The notes beneath the pieces were generated by a model. The model ran no database searches, had not been told where the DNA came from, and saw nothing but the letters and a program-made list of their open reading frames with translations. The position numbers and the translations under genes were made by a program. 53,837 bases of DNA from Bacilli bacterium (GTDB taxonomy: Bacteria > Bacillota_I > Bacilli_A > RF39 > UBA660). Below are positions 13,209 through 35,522 of this stretch, one piece after another. Location: positions 1 through 53,837 of the forward strand of contig JAFVEF010000006.1 of NCBI GenBank assembly GCA_017478105.1, written 5' to 3'. Each line of letters starts with the position of its first letter. Within the stretch, counting starts at the first letter, position 1.

Positions 13209-13796
13209 ATGGAGAATAAAAAAGACCTAAGATTTATTATTATATTCATAGTAATTGTTGGTATTTCTTTAATATATCTAGCCCAAGCATCATATGCAAA
13301 ATACCGAAGGCAAATAGATGGAAATGTAGAAGCAACAGTTGCTCAATGGAATATTAAAGTAAATAATGAACTAATAAATAATAAAAGTGTTTTAACAAAT
13401 GATATAATTCCTTATTTAGAAAGCAATCCTTATATAAAACAAAATGTAATAGCCCCAGGAGGAACAGGATATTTTGATTTAAGTATAGATGGTACTGAAG
13501 TTGACGTAGACTTTACATATCAAATAACTATTGAAAATGATGAATTAGCTCCTCTAGAAGACTTAATAATAACTCGTTACGAACAAGACAGAGTTGCTTA
13601 TAATTACAATTCTGAAACAGGAATAACTGGTAATATAACTAAAAATACAGGTCCAGTAAATGTAAGAGTATACTTTATGTGGAATGATTCAGAAACAAAC
13701 GTAATGGATAATCAAGCAGATACTGAATATGCAACACAAACAGAAAATCCAATTGCTTATATAATAGCAAAAGTTCGCTTCAAACAAAAACAATAA
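13209..13796 (+). CDS. SipW-dependent signal peptide protein (TasA/camelysin-like fibre subunit)
   Basis: TM then ASYA|KY; VAQWNIKVN, IAPGGTG motifs shared with 13822 and 20593. Confidence 0.75.
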   Translation: MENKKDLRFIIIFIVIVGISLIYLAQASYAKYRRQIDGNVEATVAQWNIKVNNELINNKSVLTNDIIPYLESNPYIKQNVIAPGGTGYFDLSIDGTEVDVDFTYQITIENDELAPLEDLIITRYEQDRVAYNYNSETGITGNITKNTGPVNVRVYFMWNDSETNVMDNQADTEYATQTENPIAYIIAKVRFKQKQ

Positions 13797-13823
13797 AAAA
13801 GATCACTCATGTGATCTTTTTTT
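13795..13823. terminator. Bidirectional intrinsic terminator between convergent fibre-subunit genes
   Basis: AAAAAAGATCAC-TCAT-GTGATCTTTTTT. Confidence 0.75.
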
Positions 13824-14556
13824 ATGACCCTAATCTTTGTTGAGCTAATAATCTAAGTGTTAAACTTAAACAAGATTTTCCAGTATCCTTCTCATACAAA
13901 GCACATTGCATACCGAAGAACGAATCAGCATCATCTTTTTCAATATATAATCTATTTTTATTATTATCAAATACAGTACTATCACTAACTTCAAATTCTA
14001 CATACTCTTCACCATTATTTATATAATATACAAAACCAGGATCATATGTATAAACAGAATCCATTGTGTAATACTTATCAGTTTCCTCAAAGCCCCAATG
14101 AACAATAGTATCAAAACTAATATATTGATTTATTCCAATGTAATTAGCACTAGGAGTAAAATTAACTTTGAAAGGATAATTAGTTTTTAAATAAGTAGCC
14201 GGATCATTAACACTAATAGTATGACCCAACAATGTAAATGAAGTAACTTCAAAACTAAAATCCGCAATAACATCACTATGATTATAGACCGTAACAGTCT
14301 TAGCATAATCTGGCATACCTGGTTTCATTTTAGCAATATTTATCTCAACATCATGAGTTTCTACATCATCTTCTTTAAATTCAATATCCCAAGCCGCAAC
14401 AGTTGCATCCAAACTTAAACTAGCATTAGCTGAAAAAGCAAACCACGCAAAAATATTAACACCTAAAGTAAAAAGTGCTAAGAAAATACTAACATACTTC
14501 TTCTTGATTATAGCTTTTTTCCAATTTTCACGTTTTTCGTAGCTTGTATCTTTCAT
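13822..14556 (-). CDS. SipW-dependent signal peptide protein
   Basis: Basic N-region, TM, NIFA|WF; VAAWDI, MKPG motifs. Confidence 0.75.
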   Translation of the reverse strand: MKDTSYEKRENWKKAIIKKKYVSIFLALFTLGVNIFAWFAFSANASLSLDATVAAWDIEFKEDDVETHDVEINIAKMKPGMPDYAKTVTVYNHSDVIADFSFEVTSFTLLGHTISVNDPATYLKTNYPFKVNFTPSANYIGINQYISFDTIVHWGFEETDKYYTMDSVYTYDPGFVYYINNGEEYVEFEVSDSTVFDNNKNRLYIEKDDADSFFGMQCALYEKDTGKSCLSLTLRLLAQQRLGS

Positions 14557-14568
14557 CTAATCCTTCCT

Positions 14569-15228
14569 TTATAATATTTCTATTTCATCTTCTTTTTTCT
14601 TTTCCACAACTTCTTCTTTTTTTTCTACTTTTTCCACTTCTTTTGTGGATTTTTTCTTTTTCTCAATAAGTTTTAACTCATTCTTTTCAACTTTAATATC
14701 AGTAATAGTTTGTAATACCTCAAGTACTATTATTAAAACTAATGGACAAAAAACAAGTAAAAAGAATCCAAGTTGTGTTTTAACTATATGATTTATTTGA
14801 GTAATTATAGGAACTACTCCAACAACTTTACCTAGTATTTGACTTTCTTCTATCTTAGGATCTTCTGCTAAAGAATTTACACCTTTAGTCGTAAAAAGTC
14901 TTCCCTTATCAGTATCTTCAATATTTATTATTCTATGTGTAATAAGCATTCCTTCAAGTCCACCCTTATTACCTCTATAGGCAATATCATCACCTATTTT
15001 TAATTTACTAATATCATAATCTTTAACCGCAATAACATCATTTATATCATAAACTCCAGCCATAGACCCAGTCGCAACAGTAAAAAGTCTATATCCAAAA
15101 ACACTATTATTACCAGTCATTCTTTGAATAATAATAAAACTTAAATATAAAATTATTATACATATAAAACAAACTTTTATAATACCAGTAACTATTTTAA
15201 AAACAATATTATCTAATATTTTTTTCAT
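14569..15228 (-). CDS. sipW: SipW-type (ER-type, S26B) signal peptidase I
   Basis: VATGSM (catalytic Ser), GDDI, LITHRI (His), TKG; flanking TMs; likely ATG at 15228. Confidence 0.88.
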   Translation of the reverse strand: MKKILDNIVFKIVTGIIKVCFICIIILYLSFIIIQRMTGNNSVFGYRLFTVATGSMAGVYDINDVIAVKDYDISKLKIGDDIAYRGNKGGLEGMLITHRIINIEDTDKGRLFTTKGVNSLAEDPKIEESQILGKVVGVVPIITQINHIVKTQLGFFLLVFCPLVLIIVLEVLQTITDIKVEKNELKLIEKKKKSTKEVEKVEKKEEVVEKKKEDEIEIL

Positions 15229-15229
15229 C

Positions 15230-16360
15230 TCATGCCTCAACTTTAAACATATCTAATAAATCATCTATACTCTTAACTTCTCTATCTAATCTATTATCCA
15301 ATATATTTATAATGCTCTTTCTTCTTTTAATATTCTTCTCTTTAATCATCTCTATTTGTTTTAAAAATACATCTTTTACTCTATCCTCAGTAAGTAAAGG
15401 ATCAGTTTCTAATAAATTATCAATTAATCTTACAATCATTTGTTGAATAATATTAGTTTCATTAGTACTTTGACTACTACTTATAAAATTCTTATTCGCA
15501 ATAAAAGCCATTAAAAACGCTTGATCATATTCATTTTTTAATACACCTTTATCAAAATAATCTCTTTTTTCTTTTTCTTTTTTATCTTTACTTTGAAAAG
15601 ACTGAATATAATTCCATAACTCCTCAGCTTTACGGAAATTAGGATTTTTTAAAATAACATTAGTTTTCTTAATAGGACTTCTAACAGGAGCCACATGAAG
15701 TCTTGTAAGTGTCTGCATTAACTCTGTCCCAAAGAATCCATCTATTTGCTGCTTTGCTTTTTTAATTCTTTCCGCAAAAGAAAAACCATTCTTACTACCA
15801 CTATGTTCCTTTATACTTTTAGAAACATCACTCATATCAATAGATATTTTTAAGTTTTCCCCAAATACCTTAGTATTAGCTTCATACTTCATGATATTCT
15901 TATCCATACAATAACTAGAACCAGAAGTAGCTTCTACTCTTTGTTCAAAAAACATTCTTAAATTATTAAGTAAAGTAAAGATAAATCTATTTTCATAAGT
16001 ATCCATACTTTCCTCTTTATTTATATTAAGTATCTTAGAAGGTTTAACATCACCATTATCTTCAACTTTTTGAATTAAATTAGTATGTTGAGTAAGATGG
16101 ATAACAGATTCAACAGTAACTTTACGAGCAAGTTCTACTTTAACGATTTCTTCTTCATTTATAATGAATCTCTTTGGATTACGTAAGATATTATCAATAT
16201 ATGGTAAAACATCTTCTAAGATATCTAACCACTCATAATCAAAATCTTTCATATCGTAATCTTTCTTTACGAATAAAGTAGAATTCAAGTTATTTAAGAA
16301 CACTTCGTCATCATCAAGTTTTTCATCTTCTTCTAAAACAACTTCTTCTTGATTATCCAT
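15230..16360 (-). CDS. DUF2357 (McrC-like N-terminal domain) protein with no recognisable nuclease domain
   Basis: NPKRF..EE, DTYENRF, TNVILKNPNF...LW motifs; directly downstream of the McrB-like gene; C-terminus helical/charged. Confidence 0.72.
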   Translation of the reverse strand: MDNQEEVVLEEDEKLDDDEVFLNNLNSTLFVKKDYDMKDFDYEWLDILEDVLPYIDNILRNPKRFIINEEEIVKVELARKVTVESVIHLTQHTNLIQKVEDNGDVKPSKILNINKEESMDTYENRFIFTLLNNLRMFFEQRVEATSGSSYCMDKNIMKYEANTKVFGENLKISIDMSDVSKSIKEHSGSKNGFSFAERIKKAKQQIDGFFGTELMQTLTRLHVAPVRSPIKKTNVILKNPNFRKAEELWNYIQSFQSKDKKEKEKRDYFDKGVLKNEYDQAFLMAFIANKNFISSSQSTNETNIIQQMIVRLIDNLLETDPLLTEDRVKDVFLKQIEMIKEKNIKRRKSIINILDNRLDREVKSIDDLLDMFKVEA

Positions 16361-16376
16361 CTAAATTACCTCCTTT

Positions 16377-17915
16377 TTATACCATCTTCTTAAGTCTTAA
16401 TAAATAGTCTTTACACTCCTTAAAGTTTTCTTTTCCAAAACTCTTATCTAAGAATTCAATAAATGGATCAATTTCATCACGAATATAAGCTAAGTTTAAT
16501 TGTTCAAACTTACGTAAAATCTTACGAGCTATATAATAATCTACTCCATCTACTTCTCTTCCACCACAACCAACATAAGTTGCGACAAAGTCTTTCATCT
16601 GTTTAACAATACGGTTACCGAAAGCTATACGGAAATGTTTAATAACATAATCATCCATATCATTTATTTTAGCTTCCATCTCACTAGTTAATGGATATTT
16701 ACTCTTAGCTTCAGCAAATAATCCTTCCAAGTAAGAACTATTAATATTCATCGCATCTGTATCAATAGGTTCAAATACTTGTCCTTTATCATTAATATCA
16801 ATTGGCATAGCACGGTCATACACCTTATCAGTAACAGCAAATGTAGAATCATCGTTATTGATTGTACCAATATACCACATATTTCCAGGTATTTGTAACT
16901 TACCTTGTTTTAACCTCTTAGGATCATTTGGCCAAACACTTGGAACTAACTCAATTATCCACTCATCACGAGAAGGCATTTCTAGAATAGATAACATTTC
17001 TGCAAAATAGTACTCAACACGAGCGATATTCATTTCATCTAGTACAGTTACATAAACATCATCTGTATATCCAGCTAAATACATACCTTTTAAAACTTCA
17101 GTCTCATTAAACTTCTTTGTAAATTCGTTGAAATAACCAAATAACTCAGTTCTATCACGCCATGAAGGTTGAACAGAAGCGATAATTGCATCATTCTTAA
17201 TAAATTTACCCCAAGCATAAGCAAGTGAAGTTTTACCAGTACCAGAAATACCTTGTAGGATAACTAACTTAGTAGCACTTAATCCTGATATAAATAATCT
17301 AATCATTTCACTTGTATAATAAAGTCTTAACTTAGAAGCAGCAAAGTTTCTAAATATTTCAACTAACTCTGGTAAAGTAAAAGTATTACCATAATTTTGT
17401 ACTTTATAATCTTTAAATTGTAAATCAATCGCATGTAATTTAGAAAATCTGATATCTCCATCTTCTTCATCATCACTAAGAGTCTCAGTTTCACCAGTCT
17501 CTTCATTAGTAATAGTAGCCTCTTCTCCAGGTTTTAAACCTAATTGAGAAACTTTCATCGCAAGAATCTTTTCTTTTTCTTGAACTAAATTCGCAACTTC
17601 TCTATTTAATTCACCAATTTCTTGTAACATTGATTCTTGTTCAACTAAAGTCTTTCTAAATTTTAAATACTTTCTAATAAAGAATAGAATAAGCATAACA
17701 ATTAATCCAAGAACAACAAACATCACAATAACAGCTATAACTACTAAAACCCATTCTCCACCAGTAAAATCTTTTCTATATCTGTCAATTATATATAAAT
17801 AATCTGGTATACTAAACATTTGAATTAATCCTTTAAAGAATCCACCTATTATAGATCCAACTCCTTCAAAGAAGACATTCATAAATTCAAATAAGAATCT
17901 AACATATGTATCCAC
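16377..17915 (-). CDS. McrB-family AAA+ NTPase with N-terminal transmembrane and coiled-coil segment
   Basis: Walker A GISGTGKT, VQPSW..LFGYFN, Walker B LDEMNIARVEYYF, GTINNDDST (NxD-type signature), DKVYDRA; TM at ~aa 55-80; GTG start. Confidence 0.85.
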   Translation of the reverse strand: MDTYVRFLFEFMNVFFEGVGSIIGGFFKGLIQMFSIPDYLYIIDRYRKDFTGGEWVLVVIAVIVMFVVLGLIVMLILFFIRKYLKFRKTLVEQESMLQEIGELNREVANLVQEKEKILAMKVSQLGLKPGEEATITNEETGETETLSDDEEDGDIRFSKLHAIDLQFKDYKVQNYGNTFTLPELVEIFRNFAASKLRLYYTSEMIRLFISGLSATKLVILQGISGTGKTSLAYAWGKFIKNDAIIASVQPSWRDRTELFGYFNEFTKKFNETEVLKGMYLAGYTDDVYVTVLDEMNIARVEYYFAEMLSILEMPSRDEWIIELVPSVWPNDPKRLKQGKLQIPGNMWYIGTINNDDSTFAVTDKVYDRAMPIDINDKGQVFEPIDTDAMNINSSYLEGLFAEAKSKYPLTSEMEAKINDMDDYVIKHFRIAFGNRIVKQMKDFVATYVGCGGREVDGVDYYIARKILRKFEQLNLAYIRDEIDPFIEFLDKSFGKENFKECKDYLLRLKKMV

Positions 17916-17917
17916 AA

Positions 17918-18979
17918 CTATCCCTCCTCATATAATAAAATATCAATATTTTCATTCTCATAATTAACAAAGAAATCTCTATCTCTATATTTATAATCAA
18001 CAACTATTAAATAAGAGAAAAATCCCTCATTAACAATATTTTCAGTTTTTAAATAAATATCATTTATATGAGAATAATCTTGTAAACAAGCATAAGTAAA
18101 TGAATCATCAAAAGCACTTCTTTGATTTAAAAATATATTATAATCAATTCCTAATACAACATATTTTTTAAATAAAGGATTATCTATCAAATCATATATC
18201 TTATCAATAATTTTTCCTCTACTAATACAATCACTAGAAAGTTCTAATATATATACTTTACTCTTTTTCTTATCTAATAAATTTTTAAGTAATTCTAAAG
18301 ATATTTTTTGAATTAGACATTCAATCTTTTTAATATCTAACATATCTTCTTCATATACCTTATCTACCATTAACTTCTTATAATTATCTAATGATTTAAT
18401 TTGTTGTTTTAAACTAATAAAGTCTATATCATCATGGCGTTCAAACTTACGACTTGCTATAGTAAAATAATTATCTTTGTAATTTAATAATTTATTATTA
18501 GTATTATAAGTCTCTCTAACATAACTAACTAATTTATTATCTAAATTACCAATCATACTCTTTACAATTTCATTATTATTAACAAAATCTAAAACAACTT
18601 TCTCAATTGAATCTTTACTATCAATATTCAATTGATCAATCTTTATAACTTCTAAAACAAAACCCTTACTTTTCTTAATAAAAGTAACATTTTCACTATA
18701 TTCACTATTACTAACTTCTAATTCATACTCTAAATAATTATGAAGTAACTCTTTCATAGCTCCATCTAATTCTAAAATTAAATTATCTATACTATAAGTT
18801 CCATTCTCAATTGTATCAAAAACACTATAATAATAATTATCAACATAAGTTTTAAAATACATTTTAAATACATCTTTCGCAAATTTATCATGTCTTTGAT
18901 ATATCAAACAAGCATATTCTACTAAGCGATTAATCTTATAATTCATAAAAACACTAATTAAATTATTCACACTAATCAC
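17918..18979 (-). CDS. Hypothetical cytoplasmic protein, first gene of the McrB-like operon
   Basis: 353 aa ORF, 2 bp from the next gene; TGATATAAT extended -10 upstream. Confidence 0.7.
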   Translation of the reverse strand: MISVNNLISVFMNYKINRLVEYACLIYQRHDKFAKDVFKMYFKTYVDNYYYSVFDTIENGTYSIDNLILELDGAMKELLHNYLEYELEVSNSEYSENVTFIKKSKGFVLEVIKIDQLNIDSKDSIEKVVLDFVNNNEIVKSMIGNLDNKLVSYVRETYNTNNKLLNYKDNYFTIASRKFERHDDIDFISLKQQIKSLDNYKKLMVDKVYEEDMLDIKKIECLIQKISLELLKNLLDKKKSKVYILELSSDCISRGKIIDKIYDLIDNPLFKKYVVLGIDYNIFLNQRSAFDDSFTYACLQDYSHINDIYLKTENIVNEGFFSYLIVVDYKYRDRDFFVNYENENIDILLYEEG

Positions 18980-19029: not shown

Positions 19030-19965
19030 CTAATTTGCAGAAATTACAGAAACTCTAATAATAGAATTTGGGTTTACAACAGGATATGTATAATTCTTTG
19101 AAACATCATCTTTATAAAAGATAATTGAATTACTTGAAGAAGCATTTACTTTAAAAGAAAATTTCTTAACATAATTAAACCCATCAGCTAAAGTAACCTC
19201 TTCATAATTAGTATTCAGTCTCCTTAAAAACAAATTATTTGTCATATCTACTAATAATAAACTAGGATCATATTCAACAGTTACAATAGATGAAAAGCAC
19301 TTATCCTTATCAGTCTGACTTAAATTATTGTAAACATCTACACTTACTTGATCCCCAACATTATAAGTTGAAAAAGCTTCACTAACTTGATAATAAGAAA
19401 TAGAATTAGTGAAATTGATTGTTAAAAACTTAGAATTAACACTATCCACAATATCATAAGAGAAATTACTCTTTAATACTCCTATAGTATAAGTAGCAGA
19501 CATTGTCTTAACATAAGGACTAGTAGAAGTAACTGTTGTAGTAACTACAGCTTGATCTCCTTCATAAAAGTTCTGCTTAGGAGTAACAATTAAACTATAG
19601 TTATCAGTTTGATCCTCAGGATGTAATACTCCTTCAGTCTTACTCAAAGTACAAGTAACACTACTAGGACAATTATAAGATATTTCATAAGTAATATCCG
19701 TCTTAGTATAACGTTCACTATTCTTACGATTATTAATATCTATTGTTAAAGGATAACTATTAACTCCATCCCAGTTATTTATTGAATAATTCTTCCCATT
19801 AACAGCTAAAATAGTACTATTAAAATAAAAACCTTTAGTCTCTAAAATATAACTATTCAAAATATTTTTTATATATCTACCAAAAGTAAAACTAACAAAA
19901 AGAAAAATAAATAATGATACTACAACAATTTTACTGGCAGTTTTATGTTCTCTAATAAATCTCAT
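19030..19965 (-). CDS. SipW-dependent-like secreted protein
   Basis: TM then TFG|RY; beta-rich body. Confidence 0.68.
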   Translation of the reverse strand: MRFIREHKTASKIVVVSLFIFLFVSFTFGRYIKNILNSYILETKGFYFNSTILAVNGKNYSINNWDGVNSYPLTIDINNRKNSERYTKTDITYEISYNCPSSVTCTLSKTEGVLHPEDQTDNYSLIVTPKQNFYEGDQAVVTTTVTSTSPYVKTMSATYTIGVLKSNFSYDIVDSVNSKFLTINFTNSISYYQVSEAFSTYNVGDQVSVDVYNNLSQTDKDKCFSSIVTVEYDPSLLLVDMTNNLFLRRLNTNYEEVTLADGFNYVKKFSFKVNASSSNSIIFYKDDVSKNYTYPVVNPNSIIRVSVISAN

Positions 19966-19974
19966 AGTAACCTC

Positions 19975-20592
19975 CTATATAACTTGTTTAGAATCAATTA
20001 TTATTTCTATACTTTCTAAATAATTAGCATATATTGGATTAGTTGCATAACTAGTAGGAAAACTAACCTCTAAAGTATAAATATCTGTCGTTTTAGTAGT
20101 ATATGGAAGTTCATATTCACCTTGTGAGGTATATAATCTATACCAAGCCAAATCACTATCTTGTTGTGCTTCAGCTGAACCCAATATATTAGTTGCAGTA
20201 TTACTAGGTAATTCATTACGATACATCTTAATTAAAATAGGTAAATTAGTAGTAGTACGTACCTTTACTTTATAACTAATATCCATATCACTTAAAGTAG
20301 TCCCCTTAAAATTAGACACACTAAATTTATAAGTATAAGCCTCATCTCTAGGAATAATACCTTCTGGTTCTAAATTAAAACTAAGCTTTTCAGCATCAAT
20401 AATATAAATAGCTTTATCAATATCTGCATTAATTTTCGCAGCCATTTCATATCTAGCATAAACAACACTAAGTAAAAAATAAGCTAAAAATAAAACTACT
20501 AATAATAGAAACGCAAAAAGAAGAAATCTAAATTTCTCATTTTTATACTTAATATGAAATCTATAATTAATAGCCTTATTCACTATTCTCAC
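19975..20592 (-). CDS. SipW-dependent-like secreted protein
   Basis: TM then VYA|RY; camelysin-like F.VSN...D..Y pattern; terminal beta strand. Confidence 0.7.
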   Translation of the reverse strand: MRIVNKAINYRFHIKYKNEKFRFLLFAFLLLVVLFLAYFLLSVVYARYEMAAKINADIDKAIYIIDAEKLSFNLEPEGIIPRDEAYTYKFSVSNFKGTTLSDMDISYKVKVRTTTNLPILIKMYRNELPSNTATNILGSAEAQQDSDLAWYRLYTSQGEYELPYTTKTTDIYTLEVSFPTSYATNPIYANYLESIEIIIDSKQVI

Positions 20593-21225
20593 CTACCCAT
20601 TATATGGAACAATTTCTTCTCCTGTATATTGATATGCATGAAAATGTATTTCAAACAAATCATCTAATTCTTGATTATCTTCTTCTATTGCCTCCATATC
20701 CGTTAAAGCATCAAAGAAAAAGTCAACACTAATATTAATTTTTTCAGATAACTCACTAATTGGAATTATTCCAGTATATTCATCCTCTCCCGTTCTAGTA
20801 AATGTATGATCTGAAGTAATAGATGAAAATGTAAGTAACTTATCTTCATCAATTTGTTTATCTACAAATTTAAAAGTATAAATAATAGCAACTTCTGATC
20901 CAGTAGGATCTAATTCCATCGCAATAGTACCACTACTACCAGGAGATATTTTCTCTTCTCTTGTATGAGTAGATTCCCAGGTAGTATTATCTAAAATAAC
21001 ATTCTTATCAAGAGTTCCATCACTACCAATAACATCTTCTCCATTGATTTTAATACTTATTCCAGCAACATCATTTTTAACTCTAGCATCAACTAAACTT
21101 TCATATGCTGTATAAGTAAGAGATGCTCCCAAATATAAGAAGCAACCAATCAACACAACAATAAGAATAACGCGAATTTTATTAGCTCTTTTTCTTATAT
21201 CTTCCATATTATCTCCTATTATCAC
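20593..21225 (-). CDS. SipW-dependent-like secreted protein (paralogue of 13209; likely start MEDIRK)
   Basis: TYT|AY; ISIKING, KISPGSSG, SEVAI.Y motifs. Confidence 0.7.
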   Translation of the reverse strand: MIIGDNMEDIRKRANKIRVILIVVLIGCFLYLGASLTYTAYESLVDARVKNDVAGISIKINGEDVIGSDGTLDKNVILDNTTWESTHTREEKISPGSSGTIAMELDPTGSEVAIIYTFKFVDKQIDEDKLLTFSSITSDHTFTRTGEDEYTGIIPISELSEKINISVDFFFDALTDMEAIEEDNQELDDLFEIHFHAYQYTGEEIVPYNG

Positions 21226-21302
21226 AATTATAGCATAATAATAAATAATTTAAAATAAAAAAAAAGTAAAAAACCAATGAATAAATCATTGGTTTTATAG
21301 TT

Positions 21303-21893
21303 TTACAATACTTCAATATTATCAGTTTTCTTATTATTAGTAGGCTTATCATCACCATCATCTTCTTCATCTTCATTTCTTTCATACCTAATAATAACAA
21401 TAAACTCATATACTTGATAAATAAATACAACCATAATTGGAAGTAATACTAAGAATAAGAATCCGATTTTACTTTCCAAAACATCAAGTATAGCTCCTAA
21501 ATTAGAATGACGAGAAGCATACTTACCAAGAACTCTAGTTGATGCGATTGTAATACCATCCTCATCATTTAAAGTATAAAGATTAGTAAAATCATCTTTT
21601 TCAATTTTTGTAACAGCATTAGTTTTAATAACATATTTATCATTATAAACAGCATAATAATAAATCATATCACCAACTTTAATATCATTAGAATTCTTAA
21701 TAATTAGTAAGTCACCTTTTTTAACATCATGAATATTTCTCTCATCAGTCAAACTAATATTATCAAATGTATATTCACCAAATTGAGTAAATCCATGTTC
21801 ATTACGACATAATATAAAACAAGTAATCGCAATAACATAAACAATAATTATAACTTCAAATATAGACCAAACCCAATTTAAAAACCTTTTCAT
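21303..21893 (-). CDS. SipW-like protein lacking the catalytic Ser and His (pseudopeptidase)
   Basis: Same topology and FG.Y, KGDLLIIK, IKVGD.I.Y, VLGK, GFLFLVLLP motifs as 14569, but no GSM, THR or KGD. Confidence 0.72.
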   Translation of the reverse strand: MKRFLNWVWSIFEVIIIVYVIAITCFILCRNEHGFTQFGEYTFDNISLTDERNIHDVKKGDLLIIKNSNDIKVGDMIYYYAVYNDKYVIKTNAVTKIEKDDFTNLYTLNDEDGITIASTRVLGKYASRHSNLGAILDVLESKIGFLFLVLLPIMVVFIYQVYEFIVIIRYERNEDEEDDGDDKPTNNKKTDNIEVL

Positions 21894-21937: not shown

Positions 21938-24900
21938 TTACCCATCACTTTTTTTCTTAACAATAACATACCTAATATCTTCATCTATCAATTGATCATT
22001 ATCATACAATTTAAACGATATCCTATAAGTACCACTAGTAAGATTATCAGCCAAATCGAAATCAAAAGTTTTCTCAGTAGTAGAATCCATATTAATATAT
22101 ACCTCATTACCATGACCATATGCCTTACTAAATCTATTTGCGAACAAATTATTAAAATCAACTGATGTATAACTTGTTCCATCTATATCAGAAATATCAC
22201 GTTTATATACTTCAACTCTAAAATTAGGATTATTCAAATTAGCATTATATTTAACAGTATATTGATTTACTTTAGTATTGTTCATATTTAAAGAAGTTTC
22301 TCCATCTACTACTTTAAATAAATCATCACATTCTACTGTAATAGAATTATCATTATTAACTACATGTACTAAATAATCACTAGACACAGAATTTTCATAC
22401 GATGAATTATGTAATCCATCATCAGAAGCAAACAATGTATATCTAATTGTATAATCTTCCGGAGGTAAGTCTGAACTTACTGTTAAAGACACATTTTTAA
22501 CTAAGTTAGAAACTTTATCCGCCAGTTTAATTCTATATACCCCATCACTATCCGCAAAGTATTGCTTACGATCAAAGATTATACTAGTACCAACTAATAG
22601 TGATGAACTAACTGGATCACCATTTCTATCAAGAATACTAACATTAAGACCCATTTTACTAGATTCATAATTAGTATCAATAACAGATTCACGATTATCA
22701 GTTTCATTATATTTAATATCAGTTGAATAAGTAAATTCATCTGCAATATTATAATATAAATATTCTTCATTATCAGTTATAGTTTGTTCTAAGACAACGT
22801 TACTACTATTATAAAGATTAAAATACATTAAAGGTTCACGAATACCAAGAACATTATAAATAGTACGATCCTCAGGAGTTCTTAATTCAAATAACATATA
22901 ATTATCTAAATGTTGTCCTGTTGTAGTTGTTTCTTTAAAATCAAAGATAAACATAAACTCTTCATCGACTAATCCAGCTTCTTCATCATAATAAACATGA
23001 TTCATAACAGCATCATCATATCTATTATTAGTACTTGTACTATCCATTTTTATAAATTTACTTAACCTGTAAGTAATTTCATTATATTGAGCAAGTTGCT
23101 GGACAGAATCATTATAATCTTGTTGTGTAATTCTATAGTAATAATACTCTGGTCTATTAGTATTTCCACAGAAATCTAACATTGTAATCATTGTATTAAC
23201 AGGTAAAGCATAATTAGTAACTAATACATGGAAATATTCATTATTATTACCATATACTTTTTTAAAGTCATCATTCCATGATATTAGTGAATAATAAGTA
23301 CTAAATTGACTTTGATTAGTAATATTAACAGATGTAGAAGATGGCATTTCATATCTCTTATCATATGAAATAGAAGCATCATAACTATCAACATCAGATA
23401 TTTTCATAGCAGTAAGTGTAACAGTTACTGTAATAAATTTAATATCATAATCAATTTGATTCTTAGGGATATCAGCTCTTAAAGTAATAACTAAAGTTCC
23501 AAGTTTTCCATCACAATCAATATTCTTAGCATGATACAAGTAAAACATAAGCGAAGGAACTAATTGCCTACTATCAGTAGTATACTCTTCATTTCCTATA
23601 AAAGAGCCACCATCAGCACTTAAATATTTTGTAGTTCCACGACCAGTCCACTCTTGAGTTTCAGCTTTCATTGAAAGACCTAACACACCATTAGCTATTT
23701 CAGGAGTTTTAGCAACTCTTGGAACATCATTAGAATCAACTAAAGATATTTCAGGATTTAAACCACTAGTATCAGCACCCAATACTGTAAATATAGTATT
23801 ACCAGCAGCAAAGTCATCTAATTGTAATTCAGCAGTACCTAAAGATGAATACTTAGTTGCTAAAAGACTAACTTCATAACTAAAGGCTTCAAATCCGATT
23901 ATCCAACGATATCCTCTTTCACCTAACGTAGAAGGATTAATATATGCCGTAGAAACCTCAGTCAAATCATCATTCAAGAAATTAGAATAGAATCCATCTA
24001 AAGTAATATCATGATTAGTATGATGTAGCCCTTTTACATAACTACCACCAATAATTTCCATACTGGCATTTCCTCTATCACCATAATTAACTGATTGATC
24101 ATATAATCCAAAACGATAAGTACCATTATCATATGGAGTATACATTCCAAAGAAAGTCATACCAGTAACTTTACCATATGCTGTACCAGCAGGGTTTGTA
24201 GTTACATTTAAGTTTTGACCAGGAACCATATAAATACGATTATCTACATTCTTTGTAACAGTCTTATTATCATCATCAATACCAACAACAGCTGGAACAA
24301 CATTACTTCCTGAATCAACACCACTATATAATTCTTTTAATAAATTTGCATTGTGTTGAAGTAACAATGTAGTTCCATTTTTAATTGTCATCTTATCAAT
24401 AATGTTAAATGAATATTTAATATCAGAATACTCATTTGTTCTATCCGTAGTACCTTCAAGTTCTATTACTGAATGATCAATTACCAAGTTAGTAGCACGT
24501 TGAATAGAAATACTCTTATTAGGTTTTTCAAGTGTACCTAAATCTTTAACTAAAATATTAGAATCACCTGCTGATGAAGAAGCATTTCCTGAACCAAAGA
24601 TACTACCATTGATAATAAAGTCATGATCATTAGCAATATATCCAGCTCCGTTTATCGTTACATCAATACCTTTAGTAACAGAAATAAATGTCCAGTCATA
24701 TGTTTCACTACCACTAGCATTTGACTCACCACCACCAAATACAGTACCAGTTATTCTAATATCATCTTCTACTAGATCATTATTATTAACTGCACTAGTA
24801 CCGATATTTGTATGAGTAACACCATAAACGACTGCCATCTTAGGTCCACCGTAAACATTACCATGAACTATTCCACCTACTAAATTAACTGTAGCAACAG

Positions 24901-27900
24901 AATTATCAACACCAGAAACACCAGTAGAAGCCGCATTTCCTGAACCAAATACGCATCCAGCATCAGGAGCAACAGTACTAGCAGTTCCAACTTCTGTACT
25001 TCCATCTATTGTAATAGTAGAATTTCCACGAACAACAGCCGTAGAACCATTACCACCTGCAAATGCATTACCTAAAATATGAGCATCAGTAACAAATACC
25101 TCAGTATTTCCAGATACTGTCCCTTCATTACCGCCACCATATAAATTATTATTTATTGTAGAACCATTTATATCTACAACAGTATTACCAGTAACACCGG
25201 CAGCATTTCCACCACCATACAAGTCATTACAAATTAGTTTATGAGTTTCCACATTAGTATTACCAACAGTTGCTAAGTTACCACCACCGTACATAGTATC
25301 AACAACACCACCGATAGCATTAATATTAGCCGTACTTGTAACACCACCACGGTTATTTCCACCATAAACATTAGTTACATGAACATCAGGAACATATTCA
25401 TTTATTGGTCTGACAGGTTCCCCAGTAACATCAAATGAATTTAAATCAGTATCAGATAAAACACTGAAACTAAATGAATAACTACCACCTGGACTTAAAC
25501 TATTATAACCATAATAACGATTTACCGAATTAACAGTCGCAACTCCATTTTCAAGAGTAATATTAGATTGTGAATTGTTCGCAAATATTTGTGAACCAGG
25601 AACATTTAAAGATATTTCCCAATCTTGAATAGTCTCTATTGTAAGGTTCGTTACAGTAACATTTATTTCCGCATAAGTAGGTTTATTAGATTGTGGATAA
25701 TAACCAGGTGCACGTTTATTATAGTTTACAGTAACAGCTAAGTTATCAGAACCAAGTGTTACATTTGATGTAGTAATATTACCAGAATTATTAGAACCAC
25801 CATAAACATTTACTATATTTCCATTACCAATATTTACATGTGTATTTCCGACACCAGCTTCATTTCCTCCACCATAAACATTTGTTATATTTCCACCATT
25901 AACACCGACATTACTTGTAACACAATAAGCATTATCTCCTCCACCAAATAAATCAGTAACAGTAGATTTAATTGAAGTTATATTAGTTGTTGTTGTTTGT
26001 CCACCTTGATTATTTCCACCATAACCCTTAGTAATAGTAGAAGTATCAATTACAACATTACTTTCACCAACAGTACCACTTACATTAGATCCTCCAAATA
26101 CTTTATCACCAGTAACACCCGTTAAAGTAACATGAGTATCTGTAGCTCCGGCTTTTTTTCCTCCGCCATAAACACTATGAACACTACGATTAGTTACAGT
26201 GACATTTGTAGTTCCACTTTCAGCTTCATTTCCTCCACCATAAATATCTAAAGTTATTGTTGCAGCATTTCCATTAACAACAACATTGGTATTATTAGTT
26301 AAACCATCTAAGTTATTACCACCATATATCTCATTAACAGAACCACTAGAAACTGTAACATTAGATTGTGAAACAGTACCTAATAAGTTAGAACCTCCAT
26401 ATAAATTACCAGTAATAGTAGCTCCTTGAAGTCTAATATCAGTATAATCTTGATTGGCATTATTTCCTCCACCAAAAGCATCTCCGATTGTACCACCATT
26501 TAAGTATACAACGTCTCCATTACTTGGCTTTCCAGAGGCATCAAATCCACCAAATACTTTTCCAATTGAACCACCATTTACATTAACAGTTATATTTCCA
26601 ACAACCTTTGGTGATTTATCTCCACCTTTACCACCACCAAAGACATTATTAGTAACAACACCACCGTTAACAGTAACTGTTGTTGTAGCATTAGAAGTTG
26701 TAGAAGTTTCATTTATCGCATTAACTGTACCATAAGCACTACCACCATAAACATTTCCTTTTACTTGTCCGCTACTAATCGTAACAGCAACATTATCACG
26801 TACATAAGTACCAGGAGAATCACTGTCTGTATATCCACCTTCTCCACCGCCATAAACATCAGTTTTAACAGTACCTCCGTTTACAACAACATTAGTAGAT
26901 CCATAAACAATTCCTTTGGCACAACTTCCACCATAAACACTACCAGTAACTTCACCAGAATTTACAGAAATATTAATAGTCGAAGTAACATTGCTACTAC
27001 CACTACCATTATTATTTCCTCCACCGTAAACACTACCTTTTACGGTTCCACCATTTATATATATATTTGTAGAAGAAGCATTACCACTTTGAGCCACAAC
27101 AGCTCCGTAATTTCCTCCTCCATAAACATTTTTTCTAACATCTGCACTATCTTCAACAATTACTATAGAATTATTAACTGAACCTATTTGAGAGTAATTA
27201 CTATTACCATTACCGGCACCAAATACAGAACCAGATTCTATACCAAATCTTGTATCATTTTTTCCACCAACTTGGCAACTTCCACCAACACGTACCAGTG
27301 TACTACCATTTAATGTTCCTTTAGAACTACTACTATTACTTCCATTATAACCATTTGAACCACCAAAAACGCCATAATTAATAACTCCACCAGTAGCATT
27401 AATCAAACGATTTCCATGTGTTTCAGTAACAGCAGCTCCACCAAAGACAGCATCCATTTCACCACCTTTGATGTTAATATAAATCGCATTATAGTTTGTT
27501 AAATTAGTACTAATAAGTGGTCCACCATTTATATATAATACTTTCCCACCTTCAACTATTATTTCCGCAGGAGAGTAAATAGTACCACCATTTAATCCAC
27601 CTACATAAATTCCAGCAGCAGTATCAGTAGTATCTTCACCAAATGTACCACTCTTTATAATAGTTGTTATATATTTAGTAGCATTATTAGCTCCATAAAT
27701 ATAACCACCATATGATGAAGTAGCATTATAATAAACTCCAAGTTTTTCATGATCATTATTTATTCTATCAAAATCATTTCCATAAGTTGCAGTACCATCA
27801 ACATAATAAGTTGCTGAAGAATTATTAGTACTTACACCACTAAGATAATTATAATAACCTGATTCAACTATTAAACTATATTTAGTAGGGCTTCCACTAG

Positions 27901-30483: not shown

Positions 30484-31710
30484 TTAATAATTACCTATTC
30501 TAACCATTCTTTCTATTTTATCTAGTTCAAAGACATTTTTATTATCAAATCTATTAGATACTTTCTTCATAAATTCAATTAAAGTATGTAACTGTTTAGA
30601 AGCAGTCTTATCATTTTTACTAATTTGTTTAAATTTATTATCTTTATCGATTTGAACTTTATACTTTAAAATCTTATATATACCATCAAACATTTCATCA
30701 TCATTATATAAAATTGCATAAGTAAGTAATCTTAAGAATACATAAATAGGCATATCATAAATTTTATTTCGAATAGTTTCAGTTAATCCTACTCGATCTA
30801 AATCATAATCATATATTTCTTTAAATGGTGGATTGTTTATTTCCTCAGTCAACTTGATAGAATTATCATTTACTAACAATTGACATAATTTATAAACATA
30901 TTGATATTTAGTTAACCATTTCTTATTCATTCTTGCTTTCGCAACATGATTCTTTTTACATTTAAGTATTGATACTACAAGATCAACAGTTTCTTTTTCT
31001 TTAGTATCTCTCTTTTTCTTTTTAACAGGTTCTTCAACCATATAATCATCAAATGATAAAACTTCAATTTCTTGAGTAGCTTCTACATTATCAGCTTCTT
31101 CTTCATTCGAATCCTTTATTTTTTCCATTTCATCCAAAGCTATTGTTACTGTAAGACCAGTAGATGGTTCTTCAATTCTATTTGGATTTGAAAATAAATC
31201 ATTTGGTAATTTCGCATTTTTCTTTTGTTCTTTTAAGATGTATTTTTCAATTATTTGATCAAAATTGAATAAAGCAAGTAATATAAATACTATTAAGAAA
31301 ATTGCGATAGATTTAATAATAAAACTTGGTGATACTACATTAACAACTCTACCAACCATTTGATCTTTACTAATTTCTTCATCCGAAACATTATTGACAT
31401 CACCTTTAGTTATATATTTATCACCATTTTTACTAACTAATCGATGTGTTATTAAAGATCCATCTTTATTTTTAAATGTAATAATATCATTTACCTTAGC
31501 ATCTTTTGTTATTTTAACAAATATTATATCATTAACTTCAATAGTACCAGACATAGATCCAGTCGCAACAACAAAATAAGTATAACCAAATACATTTGCA
31601 TAATCTTTCTTCATTAGATCAGTAACTACAAACGTATAAATACATAAAGATACAAGTAAGACTAAGAAAACAGAAGCTACATATTTCAATATAGTTTTCA
31701 CTTTTCCCAT
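30484..31710 (-). CDS. sipW: SipW-type signal peptidase I with a large C-terminal cytoplasmic extension
   Basis: VATGSM, LITHRL, TKGD.N..D; second TM then ~255 extra aa. Confidence 0.85.
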   Translation of the reverse strand: MGKVKTILKYVASVFLVLLVSLCIYTFVVTDLMKKDYANVFGYTYFVVATGSMSGTIEVNDIIFVKITKDAKVNDIITFKNKDGSLITHRLVSKNGDKYITKGDVNNVSDEEISKDQMVGRVVNVVSPSFIIKSIAIFLIVFILLALFNFDQIIEKYILKEQKKNAKLPNDLFSNPNRIEEPSTGLTVTIALDEMEKIKDSNEEEADNVEATQEIEVLSFDDYMVEEPVKKKKRDTKEKETVDLVVSILKCKKNHVAKARMNKKWLTKYQYVYKLCQLLVNDNSIKLTEEINNPPFKEIYDYDLDRVGLTETIRNKIYDMPIYVFLRLLTYAILYNDDEMFDGIYKILKYKVQIDKDNKFKQISKNDKTASKQLHTLIEFMKKVSNRFDNKNVFELDKIERMVRIGNY

Positions 31711-33497: not shown

Positions 33498-33678
33498 CTT
33501 TAGCTTCACCACCATCTTCTTGATTTTCACTTGCATCTTCACTAACTTCTTTTTCTTCTAAAATAATACTTTCTTTTAGATATTGAAGATGAGATAGTAC
33601 TTCATCATATAAGACTAATAAATCACTATCATTTAATCCCTTAATTTCAGTTAAAATTTCATTATTCATATATTTCAC
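33490..33678 (-). CDS. Small acidic hypothetical protein
   Basis: RBS GAGGTGA; stop overlaps the start of the next gene (ATGAATAA). Confidence 0.6.
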   Translation of the reverse strand: MKYMNNEILTEIKGLNDSDLLVLYDEVLSHLQYLKESIILEEKEVSEDASENQEDGGEAKDE

Positions 33679-33687
33679 CTCATAGAA

Positions 33688-33716
33688 TAAAAGCCTTCAA
33701 ATAACTGAAGGCTCTT
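33688..33716 (-). terminator. Intrinsic terminator after the putative major fibre subunit
   Basis: AGCCTTCA-N6-TGAAGGCT followed by a T tract on the minus strand. Confidence 0.7.
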
Positions 33717-33736
33717 AAATATTATCTAAATTATTA

Positions 33737-34726: not shown

Positions 34727-34743
34727 AATTAAACTCCTTCATA

Positions 34744-35457: not shown

Positions 35458-35522
35458 TATCAATCACCACTCTGTCTATATATTGTATCACTAATGCCAC
35501 CTTTCCTACTATGCCTAATATT

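What the first reader, a model, noticed from the sequence alone, without database searches (positions are those of the whole stretch)
15230..17915. McrB-type NTPase with a transmembrane anchor in place of a DNA-binding domain, paired with a nuclease-less DUF2357
Seen: the AAA+ core is intact (GISGTGKT, LDEMNIARVEYYF, GTINNDDST, DKVYDRA), but the N-terminus is an amphipathic helix, TM helix and coiled coil. The partner keeps the DUF2357 motifs (DTYENRF, N...KNPNF..LW) and then ends in ~120 helical residues with no PD-(D/E)xK motif I can find. Known: McrB hexamers are stimulated by the McrC N-terminal domain and cleave DNA through the McrC nuclease; NxD-type McrBs pair with DUF2357. Inference: motor and activator are retained while specificity and nuclease domains are lost, i.e. 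a restriction machine repurposed at the membrane. Membrane-associated phage sensing is an alternative.
Basis: partly seen in the sequence, partly recalled or inferred. Interest (0 to 1): 0.88.

Follow-up and report, generated by a model that had tools for sequence, protein, structure and literature searches.

The report
Membrane McrBC-like GTPase in a fibre-secretion operon
A membrane-anchored relative of the McrBC restriction motor and its nuclease-less partner sit inside a conserved operon for signal peptidases and TasA-like surface-fibre proteins, a gene arrangement that has been named in print (CoCoPALM) but never studied experimentally.

Summary
ORF 16377-17915 (-) encodes a 512-aa McrB-type NTPase with an intact core, one strong TM helix and a coiled coil in place of a DNA-binding domain. 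ORF 15230-16360 (-) encodes a 376-aa DUF2357 (McrC N-domain) protein with an all-helical C-terminus and no nuclease signature.

The pair is not free-standing. It lies in a tight operon with SipW-type signal peptidases, an inactive peptidase-like protein, small secreted proteins with a TasA/pilin-like beta-sandwich, a 2,842-aa surface protein and an uncharacterised 353-aa cytoplasmic protein (X353). In 80 related loci, the DUF2357 gene follows the NTPase gene in 77, and a signal-peptidase gene lies within 4 kb in 79.

This matches the "CoCoPALM" systems named in one paragraph of Bell et al. 2024 (eLife, PMC11090510), so it is a new member of a known but unexplored kind.

New here: a complex prediction (ipSAE 0.76, best control 0.00) docks the DUF2357 C-terminal helix onto X353. 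In many relatives X353 is fused to a membrane signal peptidase. X353 was found in 55 of 55 loci with a short DUF2357 and 0 of 14 with a long one.

My best reading is a GTPase module coupled to peptidase-dependent fibre biogenesis, not DNA restriction. That function is inferred, not shown.

The parts
16377..17915 (-). 512-aa McrB-like NTPase (CoCoPALM 'McrB' component)
   Evidence: ORF. Profile hit to E. coli McrB 6hz4_A, E 3.4e-5. Walker A, Walker B and N-N-D-[D/E] present in 80 of 80 relatives.
17676..17753 (-). Transmembrane helix, about residues 55-80, followed by the basic stretch RKYLKFRK
   Evidence: Kyte-Doolittle 19-residue mean 3.52 for residues 58-76. A TM segment is present in 80 of 80 relatives. 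A cytoplasmic C-terminus is inferred from the positive-inside rule and the need for GTP.
17541..17663 (-). Predicted coiled-coil segment, about residues 85-125
   Evidence: Invariant L97, E99, L103, N104, V107, L110 and E113 in alignment A1. Only sub-threshold FtsL, FtsL_2 and DivIC hits, E 0.04-1.
16782..17333 (-). AAA+ GTPase core, residues 195-378
   Evidence: Aligned to McrB residues 18-203 of 6hz4_A.
15230..16360 (-). 376-aa DUF2357 / McrC-N-like partner without a nuclease
   Evidence: Pfam DUF2357 E 4.3e-13. Model matches McrC at Z 9.0 and 8.1. Lies immediately downstream of the NTPase gene in 77 of 80 loci.
15236..15388 (-). C-terminal long helix, residues 325-375; predicted docking site for X353
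   Evidence: Helix 325-375 in the model. Interface residues 343-376 in the complex prediction, ipSAE 0.76 against a best control of 0.00.
17918..18979 (-). X353: 353-aa cytoplasmic protein of an uncharacterised family; stands alone here, fused to a signal peptidase in other lineages
   Evidence: No Pfam or NCBIfam family. Homologous to the C-terminal domain of 633-756-aa peptidase fusions. 661 representatives at E <= 0.001. Predicted to bind the DUF2357 C-terminus.
14569..15240 (-). SipW/archaeal-type signal peptidase I; overlaps the DUF2357 stop by 11 nt
   Evidence: TIGR02228 E 6e-20, 71.7 bits against a cut-off of 51.85; NF046067 SipW E 8e-22, below its cut-off. The GSM serine and THR histidine are kept.
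13822..14556 (-). 244-aa secreted/anchored protein with an N-terminal TM helix (T244 family)
   Evidence: TM at 22-40. Homologue downstream of SipW in 59 of 80 loci.
13209..13796 (+). 195-aa protein (T195): N-terminal TM/signal helix, S-Y-A-K-Y motif, TasA/pilin-like beta-sandwich
   Evidence: Model pLDDT 88.6. Foldseek top hit is the TasA fibre 8aur_A, E 6.1e-4, followed by donor-strand pilins. VIA Z 6.5-7.2, tied with generic Ig-like folds.
19030..21225 (-). Three further small N-terminally anchored proteins (311, 205 and 210 aa), partly paralogous to T195
   Evidence: ORFs and TM segments. Conserved positions in related loci.
21303..21893 (-). 196-aa two-TM signal-peptidase-like protein lacking the catalytic Ser and His (probably inactive)
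   Evidence: Alignment with the active paralogues. Homologue in 69 of 80 loci.
21938..30466 (-). 2,842-aa protein with an N-terminal hydrophobic segment and no Pfam domain (candidate surface/fibre-associated giant protein)
   Evidence: Large homologues are present in many related loci.
30484..31710 (-). 408-aa second signal peptidase (S24/S26-like) with two TM helices and a cytoplasmic tail
   Evidence: Pfam Peptidase_S24 E 5.8e-5. Catalytic motifs GSM and THR kept. N-terminus 38-42% identical to the peptidase part of the X fusions.
31878..35463 (-). Upstream cluster genes (554, 329 and 239 aa). The 329-aa protein has a TasA-type signal-anchor motif (S-T-Y-A-W-F-T).
   Evidence: N-termini. Homologues recur in related loci. 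The cluster ends at ScpB, 35763-36332.
13795..13822 (-). Terminator-like hairpin closing the operon after the 244-aa gene
   Evidence: 6 terminator-like sites found against 1.2 expected. Another lies at 21270-21296.

Best explanation
[quoted passage not shown] 2024). They belong to a chromosomal cluster of about 22 kb (about 13.2-35.5 kb). The cluster encodes two apparently active SipW/ER-type signal peptidases, one inactive peptidase-like protein, several small TasA/pilin-like secreted proteins, a giant surface protein and a cytoplasmic domain, X353.

Proposed mechanism, all inferred:
1. The GTPase forms a membrane-tethered ring through its TM helix and coiled coil.
2. The DUF2357 protein engages the ring as McrC does and stimulates GTP hydrolysis.
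3. Where McrC carries a nuclease, this partner carries a long C-terminal helix that docks onto X353.
4. In many related lineages X353 is the cytoplasmic tail of a membrane signal peptidase. GTP hydrolysis would thus be coupled to, or would gate, the processing, export or polymerisation of the fibre subunits.

It is not a DNA restriction enzyme.

My odds: CoCoPALM identity about 0.9. A role in surface-fibre or secretion biogenesis rather than defence about 0.6-0.65. The specific motor-adaptor-peptidase coupling about 0.35.
For: Identity of the pair: see the observation check.

Operon: gaps of 2, 16, -11 and 12 nt link X353, the NTPase, DUF2357, SipW and the 244-aa gene. Terminator-like hairpins bracket 13.8-21.3 kb.

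Context conservation:
- All 6 unnamed-genome loci (52-81% NTPase identity) keep NTPase > DUF2357 > SipW > T244.
- In 80 named loci, DUF2357 is immediately downstream in 77. A signal-peptidase homologue lies within 4 kb in 79 and somewhere in the locus in 80. X353 or a BLAST match to the peptidase-X reference set (some of these are standalone X proteins or plain peptidases) is immediately upstream in 64.

Secreted proteins: T195 models as a TM helix plus beta-sandwich (pLDDT 88.6). Its top Foldseek hit is the TasA fibre (E 6.1e-4, prob 0.99), followed by FimG/PapG/CfaB pilins and the archaeal bundling pilus 7ueg. SipW matches TIGR02228 above its cut-off.

Coupling to X353:
- X353 is homologous to the C-terminal domain of 633-756-aa peptidase fusions.
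- The complex prediction gave ipSAE 0.75, 0.76 and 0.77 against a best control of 0.00. At calibration this mark was reached by 58 of 80 solved complexes and 2 of 110 mismatched pairs. Runs agree in at least 76% of contacts. Partner pLDDT was 84-85. The interface is DUF2357 residues 343-376 with X353 residues 4-18 and 160-228.
- Of 69 loci with a complete partner and at least 1.1 kb upstream, X353 was found in 55 of 55 with a short DUF2357 and 0 of 14 with a long one.

Conservation and spread: the NTPase is the best conserved cluster protein, at 54-86% identity (median 65), against 30-76% (median 40) for DUF2357. It is near-universal in several families: f13 21 of 23, f20 14 of 16, f29 7 of 7, f19 6 of 6. 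In a same-genus genome (L016) the cluster's downstream flank carries the same housekeeping genes.

Literature: Bell et al. 2024, passages read.
Against: No experiment exists for any CoCoPALM system, so the function is inferred from context.

The TasA/pilin-like call for T195 is moderate. VIA Z 6.5-7.2 ties with generic Ig-like sandwiches, and no chain reached Z >= 8. None of 33 family members hits Pfam Peptidase_M73.

Known TasA and donor-strand fibres assemble without a cytoplasmic NTPase (established knowledge; the papers were seen only as listings). The need for a motor is therefore unexplained.

The complex prediction used my own alignments and three chains, unlike the calibration set. pLDDT of the non-partner chains was only 54-56. 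The X353/short-DUF2357 co-variation may reflect a single evolutionary event.

Distribution within the window's own family is patchy: 14 of 37 genomes that are at least 90% complete. One 94%-complete same-genus genome lacks the gene (G020). Some genomes carry 2-3 copies.

The ancestry is from defence systems, and a PADLOC candidate model (PDC-M26A) hits the AAA+ core.
Confidence: 0.55

Rival explanations
1. The GTPase/DUF2357/X353 module is a nucleotide-dependent switch or checkpoint. It gates peptidase activity or the choice and order of subunits, for example in response to a cytoplasmic signal, and does no mechanical work on the fibre.
For: The same context evidence as the best explanation. 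TasA-type fibres need no motor (established knowledge). X353 is a separate, confidently folded cytoplasmic domain (partner pLDDT 84-85). It has a weak, unverified language-model lead to EAL-type signalling domains (0.89).
Against: AAA+ McrB rings are mechanochemical in the known systems (established knowledge). None of 21 X-family members hits Pfam EAL, and there are no PDB sequence hits. Nothing here separates 'gate' from 'engine'.
Confidence: 0.2
2. It is an anti-phage or conflict system acting at the membrane. The McrBC-derived sensor would trigger an abortive or surface-remodelling response, with the secreted proteins and peptidases as effectors or as decoys for phage receptors.
For: McrBC ancestry. 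The PADLOC candidate PDC-M26A hits the AAA+ core at 6e-36. Patchy presence within the window's own family, 14 of 37. 2-3 copies, some in tandem, in some genomes, and a few copies with in-frame stops.
Against: No nuclease or other recognisable toxic effector was found. The DUF2357 and X353 proteins hit no PADLOC model. No integrase or compositional break was seen, and the genes flanking the cluster are housekeeping genes; the downstream ones recur in a same-genus genome. The NTPase is very strongly conserved. Several families carry it almost universally. A search for 'PDC-M26' found 0 papers.
Confidence: 0.15
3. It is a cell-division or envelope-remodelling factor, with the FtsB/FtsL-like TM/coiled coil recruiting the GTPase to the divisome.
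For: Bell et al. call the N-terminal domain FtsB-homologous. Weak FtsL, FtsL_2 and DivIC matches, E 0.04-1.
Against: These matches are all below threshold and are shared with unrelated single-TM/helix families. In FtsB/FtsL the coiled coil is extracytoplasmic, whereas here it must sit on the GTPase (cytoplasmic) side (inference). No division genes lie in the cluster except the neighbouring ScpB, which is outside the conserved block.
Confidence: 0.04

Closest known systems
[quoted passage not shown] 2024, eLife 13:RP94800 (PMC11090510; passages read, supplements not seen)
   Same: An McrB-like GTPase with an N-x-D-[D/E] motif fused to a TM helix plus coiled coil. A DUF2357/McrC homologue with a helical or coiled-coil extension. 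Tight association with signal-peptidase-family genes.
   Different: Nothing contradicts membership. The paper gives one paragraph and a figure supplement and defers analysis to a future publication. I did not see in the passages read the X353 domain, its fusion to signal peptidases, its predicted docking to the DUF2357 C-terminal helix, or the TasA-like fold of the small proteins. These may be in its supplements.
Canonical McrBC type IV restriction enzyme (E. coli 6hz4; T. gammatolerans 6ut5)
   Same: The AAA+ GTPase core (profile E 3.4e-5). The McrC N-terminal domain fold (Z 8.1-9.0). The adjacent B-then-C gene order.
   Different: No N-terminal DNA-binding domain; a TM helix plus coiled coil stands in its place. 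No PD-(D/E)xK nuclease in the partner. Operon with secretion genes.
CoCoNuT systems (Bell et al. 2024)
   Same: According to the paper, the same NxD branch of McrB GTPases, with coiled coils on the subunits and McrC homologues that often lack an active nuclease.
   Different: CoCoNuTs are cytoplasmic and are paired in tandem with HEPN or other nucleases and RNA-binding domains. None of these is present here, and this GTPase is membrane-anchored.
SipW-TasA(-TapA) biofilm fibre system of Bacillus, and archaeal bundling pili (8aur, 7ueg)
   Same: A SipW/archaeal-type signal peptidase encoded next to small secreted beta-sandwich proteins. These carry an aromatic-Ala-x-aromatic motif after the signal anchor. 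The TasA fibre is the top Foldseek hit for T195.
   Different: No Pfam Peptidase_M73 match (0 of 33). The known systems have no cytoplasmic NTPase. Here there are several peptidase paralogues, an McrBC-like module and a giant protein.
Signal-peptidase-like pilus chaperone SipA/LepA of Streptococcus pyogenes pilus islands
   Same: A catalytically inactive signal-peptidase homologue encoded with fibre subunits, comparable to the 196-aa protein here.
   Different: Those pili are sortase-polymerised. No sortase or LPXTG signal was seen in this cluster; I checked only the C-terminus of the giant protein.

Membership tests
CoCoPALM (Bell et al. 2024) | McrB-like GTPase domain of the NxD-motif branch | tested here: inconclusive
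   The McrB-like core is shown. The motif is N-N-D-D in 79 and N-N-D-E in 1 of 80 relatives; D355 is invariant and position 356 is D/E in A1. This fits the paper's 'NxD usually followed by E or a second D'. However, the ungapped HMMER alignment to E. coli N-T-A-D also allows an NxxD reading. No phylogenetic placement was done.
CoCoPALM (Bell et al. 2024) | GTPase fused N-terminally to an FtsB-like TM helix plus coiled coil | tested here: inconclusive
   The architecture is met: TM in 80 of 80, with heptad-like invariant residues at 97-113. Homology to FtsB/FtsL/DivIC is only sub-threshold, E 0.04-1.
CoCoPALM (Bell et al. 2024) | Adjacent McrC homologue (DUF2357) | tested here: met
   Pfam DUF2357 E 4.3e-13. 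McrC is the top structural match, Z 9.0 and 8.1. Immediately downstream in 77 of 80 loci.
CoCoPALM (Bell et al. 2024) | Association with signal-peptidase-family proteins | tested here: met
   SipW overlaps the DUF2357 stop and matches TIGR02228 above its cut-off. A peptidase homologue lies within 4 kb in 79 of 80 loci.
CoCoPALM (Bell et al. 2024) | Coiled coil also on the McrC homologue | tested here: met
   A 51-residue terminal helix (325-375) in the model matches only coiled-coil chains. 14 related loci carry a KE-rich helical extension of about 340 aa.
Canonical McrBC restriction system | N-terminal DNA-binding (specificity) domain on McrB | tested here: not met
   Residues 1-190 consist of a hydrophobic/amphipathic helix, a TM helix, a coiled coil and an acidic linker. 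No DNA-binding family matched.
Canonical McrBC restriction system | PD-(D/E)xK nuclease domain in McrC | tested here: not met
   No D/E/K column is conserved at 90% or more after residue 249 in 32 sequences. After residue 258 the model has one strand and three helices, too few strands for the fold.
Canonical McrBC restriction system | GTP-dependent DNA cleavage | not testable with these tools
   This needs biochemistry.
TasA/camelysin family (Pfam Peptidase_M73), for the small secreted proteins | Sequence match to the family model | tested here: not met
   0 of 33 members hit PF12389 at E <= 1. No PDB sequence hit.
TasA/camelysin family (Pfam Peptidase_M73), for the small secreted proteins | TasA-like beta-sandwich fold with an N-terminal donor-strand region, and a cognate SipW | tested here: inconclusive
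   Foldseek top hit is the TasA fibre 8aur_A, E 6.1e-4. VIA gives Z 6.5 over 123 aligned residues, tied with generic Ig-like folds. The language-model lead to a TasA cluster is 0.94. SipW is adjacent.
PADLOC candidate system PDC-M26 | Both subunits match the system's models | tested here: not met
   The A model matches only NTPase residues 197-318 (profile 314-436 of 724). DUF2357 and X353 match no PADLOC model at E <= 0.1.
Archaeal/ER-type (SipW-like) signal peptidase I, for ORF 14569-15240 | Family model above cut-off, with catalytic Ser and His | tested here: met
   TIGR02228 gives 71.7 bits against a cut-off of 51.85. The GSM and THR motifs are kept. The SipW equivalog NF046067 is below its cut-off (77.7 against 190).

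The most novel reading that the evidence does not exclude
An McrBC-derived GTPase ring is the cytoplasmic engine of a previously unrecognised class of surface-filament or secretion apparatus in low-GC gut Firmicutes. The McrC nuclease has been replaced by an adaptor helix. That helix plugs into the cytoplasmic tail domain (X353) of a SipW-type signal peptidase, so that GTP hydrolysis is mechanically coupled to cleavage and polymerisation of TasA-like subunits. This would be functionally analogous to the ATPase/prepilin-peptidase platform of type IV pili, but built from restriction-enzyme parts.
Probability: 0.35. Interest if true: 0.8.

Novelty: new member of a known kind. Interest (0 to 1): 0.5.

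Why it matters
If the reading holds, a restriction-enzyme motor has been converted into part of a protein-export or fibre-assembly machine. The system is very common in uncultured gut and rumen Bacilli and Clostridia: at least 595 species-level genomes carry a relative.

It would also be the first donor-strand or TasA-type fibre system with a dedicated cytoplasmic NTPase.

The predicted contact between the DUF2357 C-terminal helix and X353 gives a specific, cheap experiment for a system that is so far only named in the literature.

Tried and rejected
- Expression: the look-up of sequencing runs listed no RNA holder. This says nothing about expression.
- PDB sequence searches with profiles of DUF2357 (A2), the T195 family (A3) and X353 (A4) gave nothing meaningful.
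- Pfam scans of every member gave no shared family for the T195 family (0 of 33 hit Peptidase_M73) or for X353 (0 of 21 hit EAL). A4 wrongly contained one non-homologous row, the L081 peptidase. I removed it for the HMM and rebuilt the alignment as A6.
The EAL lead (0.89) remains untested. A representative search showed a small dedicated family: 661 representatives at E <= 0.001, and the best 150 are mostly stand-alone proteins of about 300-390 aa, plus shorter partial sequences.
- Nuclease search by fold: neither Foldseek against PDB nor VIA-wide listed a nuclease for the DUF2357 model. Residues 258-322 were barely tested by those lists, so I rest the 'no nuclease' claim on the alignment and secondary structure instead.
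- FtsB homology of the N-terminus could not be confirmed.
- The long DUF2357 forms do not contain an X domain. Their extension is a KE-rich helix.
- Promoter-like sites were not above chance: 60 found against 70 expected.
- Literature: 'CoCoPALM', 'McrBC/pilus/signal peptidase/NxD' and 'DUF2357/McrB/transmembrane' returned only Bell et al. and its preprints. 'PDC-M26' returned 0 papers. The single 'McrB' mention in the C. perfringens BsaA preprint is an E. coli genotype.
- Supplementary file 1 and Figure 3-figure supplement 1 of Bell et al. could not be seen. They may already show the operon parts I describe.
- I did not build a hexamer-plus-partner model or a phylogeny. MAG titles are unreliable as taxon labels.


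Full report
OBSERVATION. The window is a low-GC stretch (about 21-36% GC) of a 1.28-Mb, 86%-complete MAG. Near-identical proteins are labelled 'Bacilli bacterium' or 'Mollicutes bacterium' in NCBI. At the given coordinates two adjacent minus-strand ORFs exist: 16377-17915 (512 aa) and 15230-16360 (376 aa).

The 512-aa protein is McrB-like. A 7-sequence profile hits E. coli McrB (6hz4_A) at E 3.4e-5 over residues 195-378. NCBIfam McrB gives E 7e-5 and Pfam AAA_5 gives E 0.008; both are below their curated cut-offs. Walker A (GISGTGKT), Walker B ([LIV]DExN) and N-N-D-[D/E] are present in 80 of 80 relatives. Residues 58-76 form a strong TM segment (hydropathy 3.52), also present in 80 of 80 relatives. 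They are followed by a basic stretch and a segment with invariant heptad-like residues.

The 376-aa protein matches Pfam DUF2357 at E 4.3e-13. Its AlphaFold model (pLDDT 76.6) is most similar to McrC of T. gammatolerans (Z 9.0, 134 aligned) and of E. coli (Z 8.1, 126 aligned), over model residues 40-257. Foldseek also gives McrC (6ut7_G) probability 0.98, although E is only 0.04. After residue 258 the model has one strand and three helices, the last spanning 325-375. The 32-sequence alignment has no acidic or lysine column conserved at 90% or more after residue 249.

CONTEXT. The pair is not free-standing. Read in the direction of transcription, the cluster encodes:
- a 239-aa and a 329-aa anchored protein; the latter has a TasA-type S-T-Y-A-W-F-T signal motif;
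- a 554-aa protein;
- a 408-aa S24/S26-type signal peptidase;
- a 2,842-aa protein with no Pfam domain;
- a 196-aa two-TM peptidase-like protein that lacks the catalytic Ser and His;
- three small anchored proteins (210, 205 and 311 aa);
- a 353-aa cytoplasmic protein, X353;
- the NTPase and the DUF2357 protein;
- a SipW/archaeal-type signal peptidase (TIGR02228, 71.7 bits against a cut-off of 51.85);
- a 244-aa anchored protein;
- on the other strand, a 195-aa anchored protein, T195.

From X353 to the 244-aa gene the intergenic distances are 2, 16, -11 and 12 nt. Terminator-like hairpins lie at 13795-13822 and 21270-21296. The cluster is bounded by ScpB on one side and by housekeeping RNA-modification genes on the other.

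CONSERVATION.
- In 41 related genomes the NTPase was found in 20. That is 18 of 24 same-genus genomes, G000 itself, and 1 of 16 genomes from other families.
- Six fetched loci with 52-81% NTPase identity all keep NTPase > DUF2357 > SipW > T244.
- In the best 80 loci (54-86% identity; titles are Bacilli, Mollicutes/Tenericutes, Erysipelotrichaceae and Clostridia MAGs, mostly gut or rumen), a DUF2357 gene is immediately downstream in 77. A signal-peptidase homologue lies within 4 kb in 79 and somewhere in the locus in 80. T244/T195-family genes occur in 59.
- The NTPase is the most conserved component: median 65% identity, against 40% for DUF2357, 36% for SipW and 35% for T195.
- Among 300 class-level genomes (298 of them at least 90% complete and at most 5% contaminated), 109 have a match at E <= 1e-40. 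The spread is strongly family-structured: f13 21 of 23, f20 14 of 16, f10 14 of 18, f29 7 of 7, f19 6 of 6. Other families show none: f5 0 of 30, f12 0 of 18, f22 0 of 15. The window's own family is patchy at 14 of 37. That threshold also admits other McrB forms (partial matches in 600-900-aa frames), so 109 is an upper bound.

LITERATURE. Bell et al. 2024 (PMC11090510; passages read) describe, within the NxD branch of McrB GTPases, 'another large clade'. [quoted passage not shown] Coiled coils are usually present on both the McrB and McrC homologues. The authors name these CoCoPALM and defer them to a future publication. Searches for 'CoCoPALM' and related terms found nothing further. The present locus fits this description.

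Of the defining features, three are met: the DUF2357 partner, the peptidase association and the coiled coil on the partner. Two are consistent but not decisive. The N-x-D-[D/E] motif matches the paper's wording but also fits an ungapped NxxD alignment to E. coli. FtsB/FtsL/DivIC similarity is only sub-threshold. I note, as an inference, that the coiled coil here must sit on the cytoplasmic GTPase side, which is the opposite topology to FtsB.

WHAT THE SECRETED PROTEINS ARE. T195 orthologues share an invariant Tyr in a [S/T]-Y-A-[K/R]-Y motif just after the TM helix, and conserved W, P, W, D and Q positions. The model (pLDDT 88.6) is a TM helix plus beta-sandwich. Foldseek ranks the TasA fibre first (E 6.1e-4, prob 0.99). 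Next come donor-strand pilins (FimG, PapG, CfaB) and the archaeal bundling pilus. VIA gives Z 7.2 (PapG pilin domain), 6.5 (TasA) and 6.0-6.4 (cannulae/Hyper2), but these tie with generic Ig-like folds. Pfam Peptidase_M73 is not matched by any of 33 members. I read these as TasA/pilin-like fibre subunits, with moderate confidence.

THE NEW LINK. X353 has no family assignment and belongs to a small dedicated family (661 representatives). It is homologous to the C-terminal cytoplasmic domain of 633-756-aa proteins whose N-terminus is a membrane signal peptidase. In the window's lineage the peptidase (408 aa) and X353 are separate genes.

A three-chain complex prediction was run with DUF2357, NTPase residues 81-200 and X353 as the partner. 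It scored ipSAE 0.75, 0.76 and 0.77, against 0.00 for all three controls. At calibration this mark was reached by 58 of 80 solved complexes and 2 of 110 mismatched pairs, and those counts hold only roughly for my own alignments and three chains. Runs agree in at least 76% of contacts. Partner pLDDT was 84-85 and the other chains 54-56. The confident interface is DUF2357 residues 343-376, the terminal helix, against X353 residues 4-18 and 160-228.

Independently, consider the 69 loci with a complete partner and enough upstream DNA. All 55 with a short DUF2357 have an X domain. None of the 14 with a long DUF2357 has one. In the long forms the extra ~340 residues are a KE-rich helix. This may reflect a single evolutionary event.

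MECHANISM.
- Shown: the domain composition, the operon, its conservation and the predicted interface.
- Inferred: a membrane-tethered GTPase ring, activated by the DUF2357 finger domain as in McrBC, is connected through the partner's C-terminal helix and X353 to a signal peptidase. It thereby drives or gates maturation and assembly of TasA-like fibre subunits and perhaps the giant protein.
- Rivals: a pure regulatory switch (0.2), a membrane defence system (0.15) and a division-related role (0.04).
- Against my reading: known TasA and donor-strand fibres need no NTPase, distribution in the window's own family is patchy, and there are no experimental data.

VERDICT. It is a typical member of the named but unexplored CoCoPALM class, so I file it as a new member of a known kind. 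The predicted DUF2357-X353-peptidase connection is a specific, testable addition. Interest 0.5.

Noticed in passing
window 21303-21893 (-): The 196-aa two-TM protein aligns with the SipW-type peptidases but has neither the GSM serine nor the THR histidine. It is probably an inactive, chaperone-like signal-peptidase homologue. Homologues occur in 69 of 80 related loci.
   Followed up: partly
window 17918-18979 and 30484-31710; L011:8194-10698, L012:8403-10355, L013:8557-10617: Split versus fused forms. In other lineages one 650-834-aa protein carries a signal peptidase, a TM helix, an acidic linker and the X domain. In the window's genus these are a 408-aa peptidase and the separate 353-aa X353.
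   Followed up: yes
L072-L074, L078-L081, L086-L089, L091, L094, L095: A Clostridia-type variant of the locus has the order TasA-like gene > SipW > NTPase > long DUF2357 (677-853 aa) > giant protein. In the three long partners inspected (L073, L080, L087) the C-terminal extension of about 340 aa or more is a charged, largely KE-rich helix. No X domain is present.
   Followed up: partly
G123:C22, G244:C45, G092:C2, G314:C1, G188:C32, G321:C14: Some genomes carry two or three copies of the NTPase gene 3-15 kb apart. A few copies have one in-frame stop (G314 TAA, G188 TAG, G321 TAA), so they may be pseudogenes or sequencing errors.
   Followed up: no
window 21938-30466 (-): A 2,842-aa ORF with an N-terminal hydrophobic segment and no Pfam domain at E <= 0.01. 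Its size varies greatly among relatives, from about 600 to 2,600 aa.
   Followed up: no
L018, L026, L046, L052, L060-L062, L074, L085, L096 (record titles): Contigs carrying this Firmicute-type cluster are titled Muribaculaceae, Bacteroidales or Acidaminococcus fermentans MAGs. These are probably mislabelled or mis-binned records, so titles are unreliable as taxon labels.
   Followed up: no
window 7394-8557 (-): A group-1 glycosyltransferase (E 8.5e-44) also matches Pfam 'GT4-conflict' weakly (E 8.4e-7). It lies outside the conserved cluster.
   Followed up: no
window 17813-17897 (-), NTPase residues 7-34: A conserved hydrophobic/amphipathic N-terminal helix precedes the TM helix, with invariant R6, F7, F16, G18, G25, G29 and F34. 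It does not reach the TM threshold. Whether it is a re-entrant helix, a second TM helix or a surface helix is open.
   Followed up: partly
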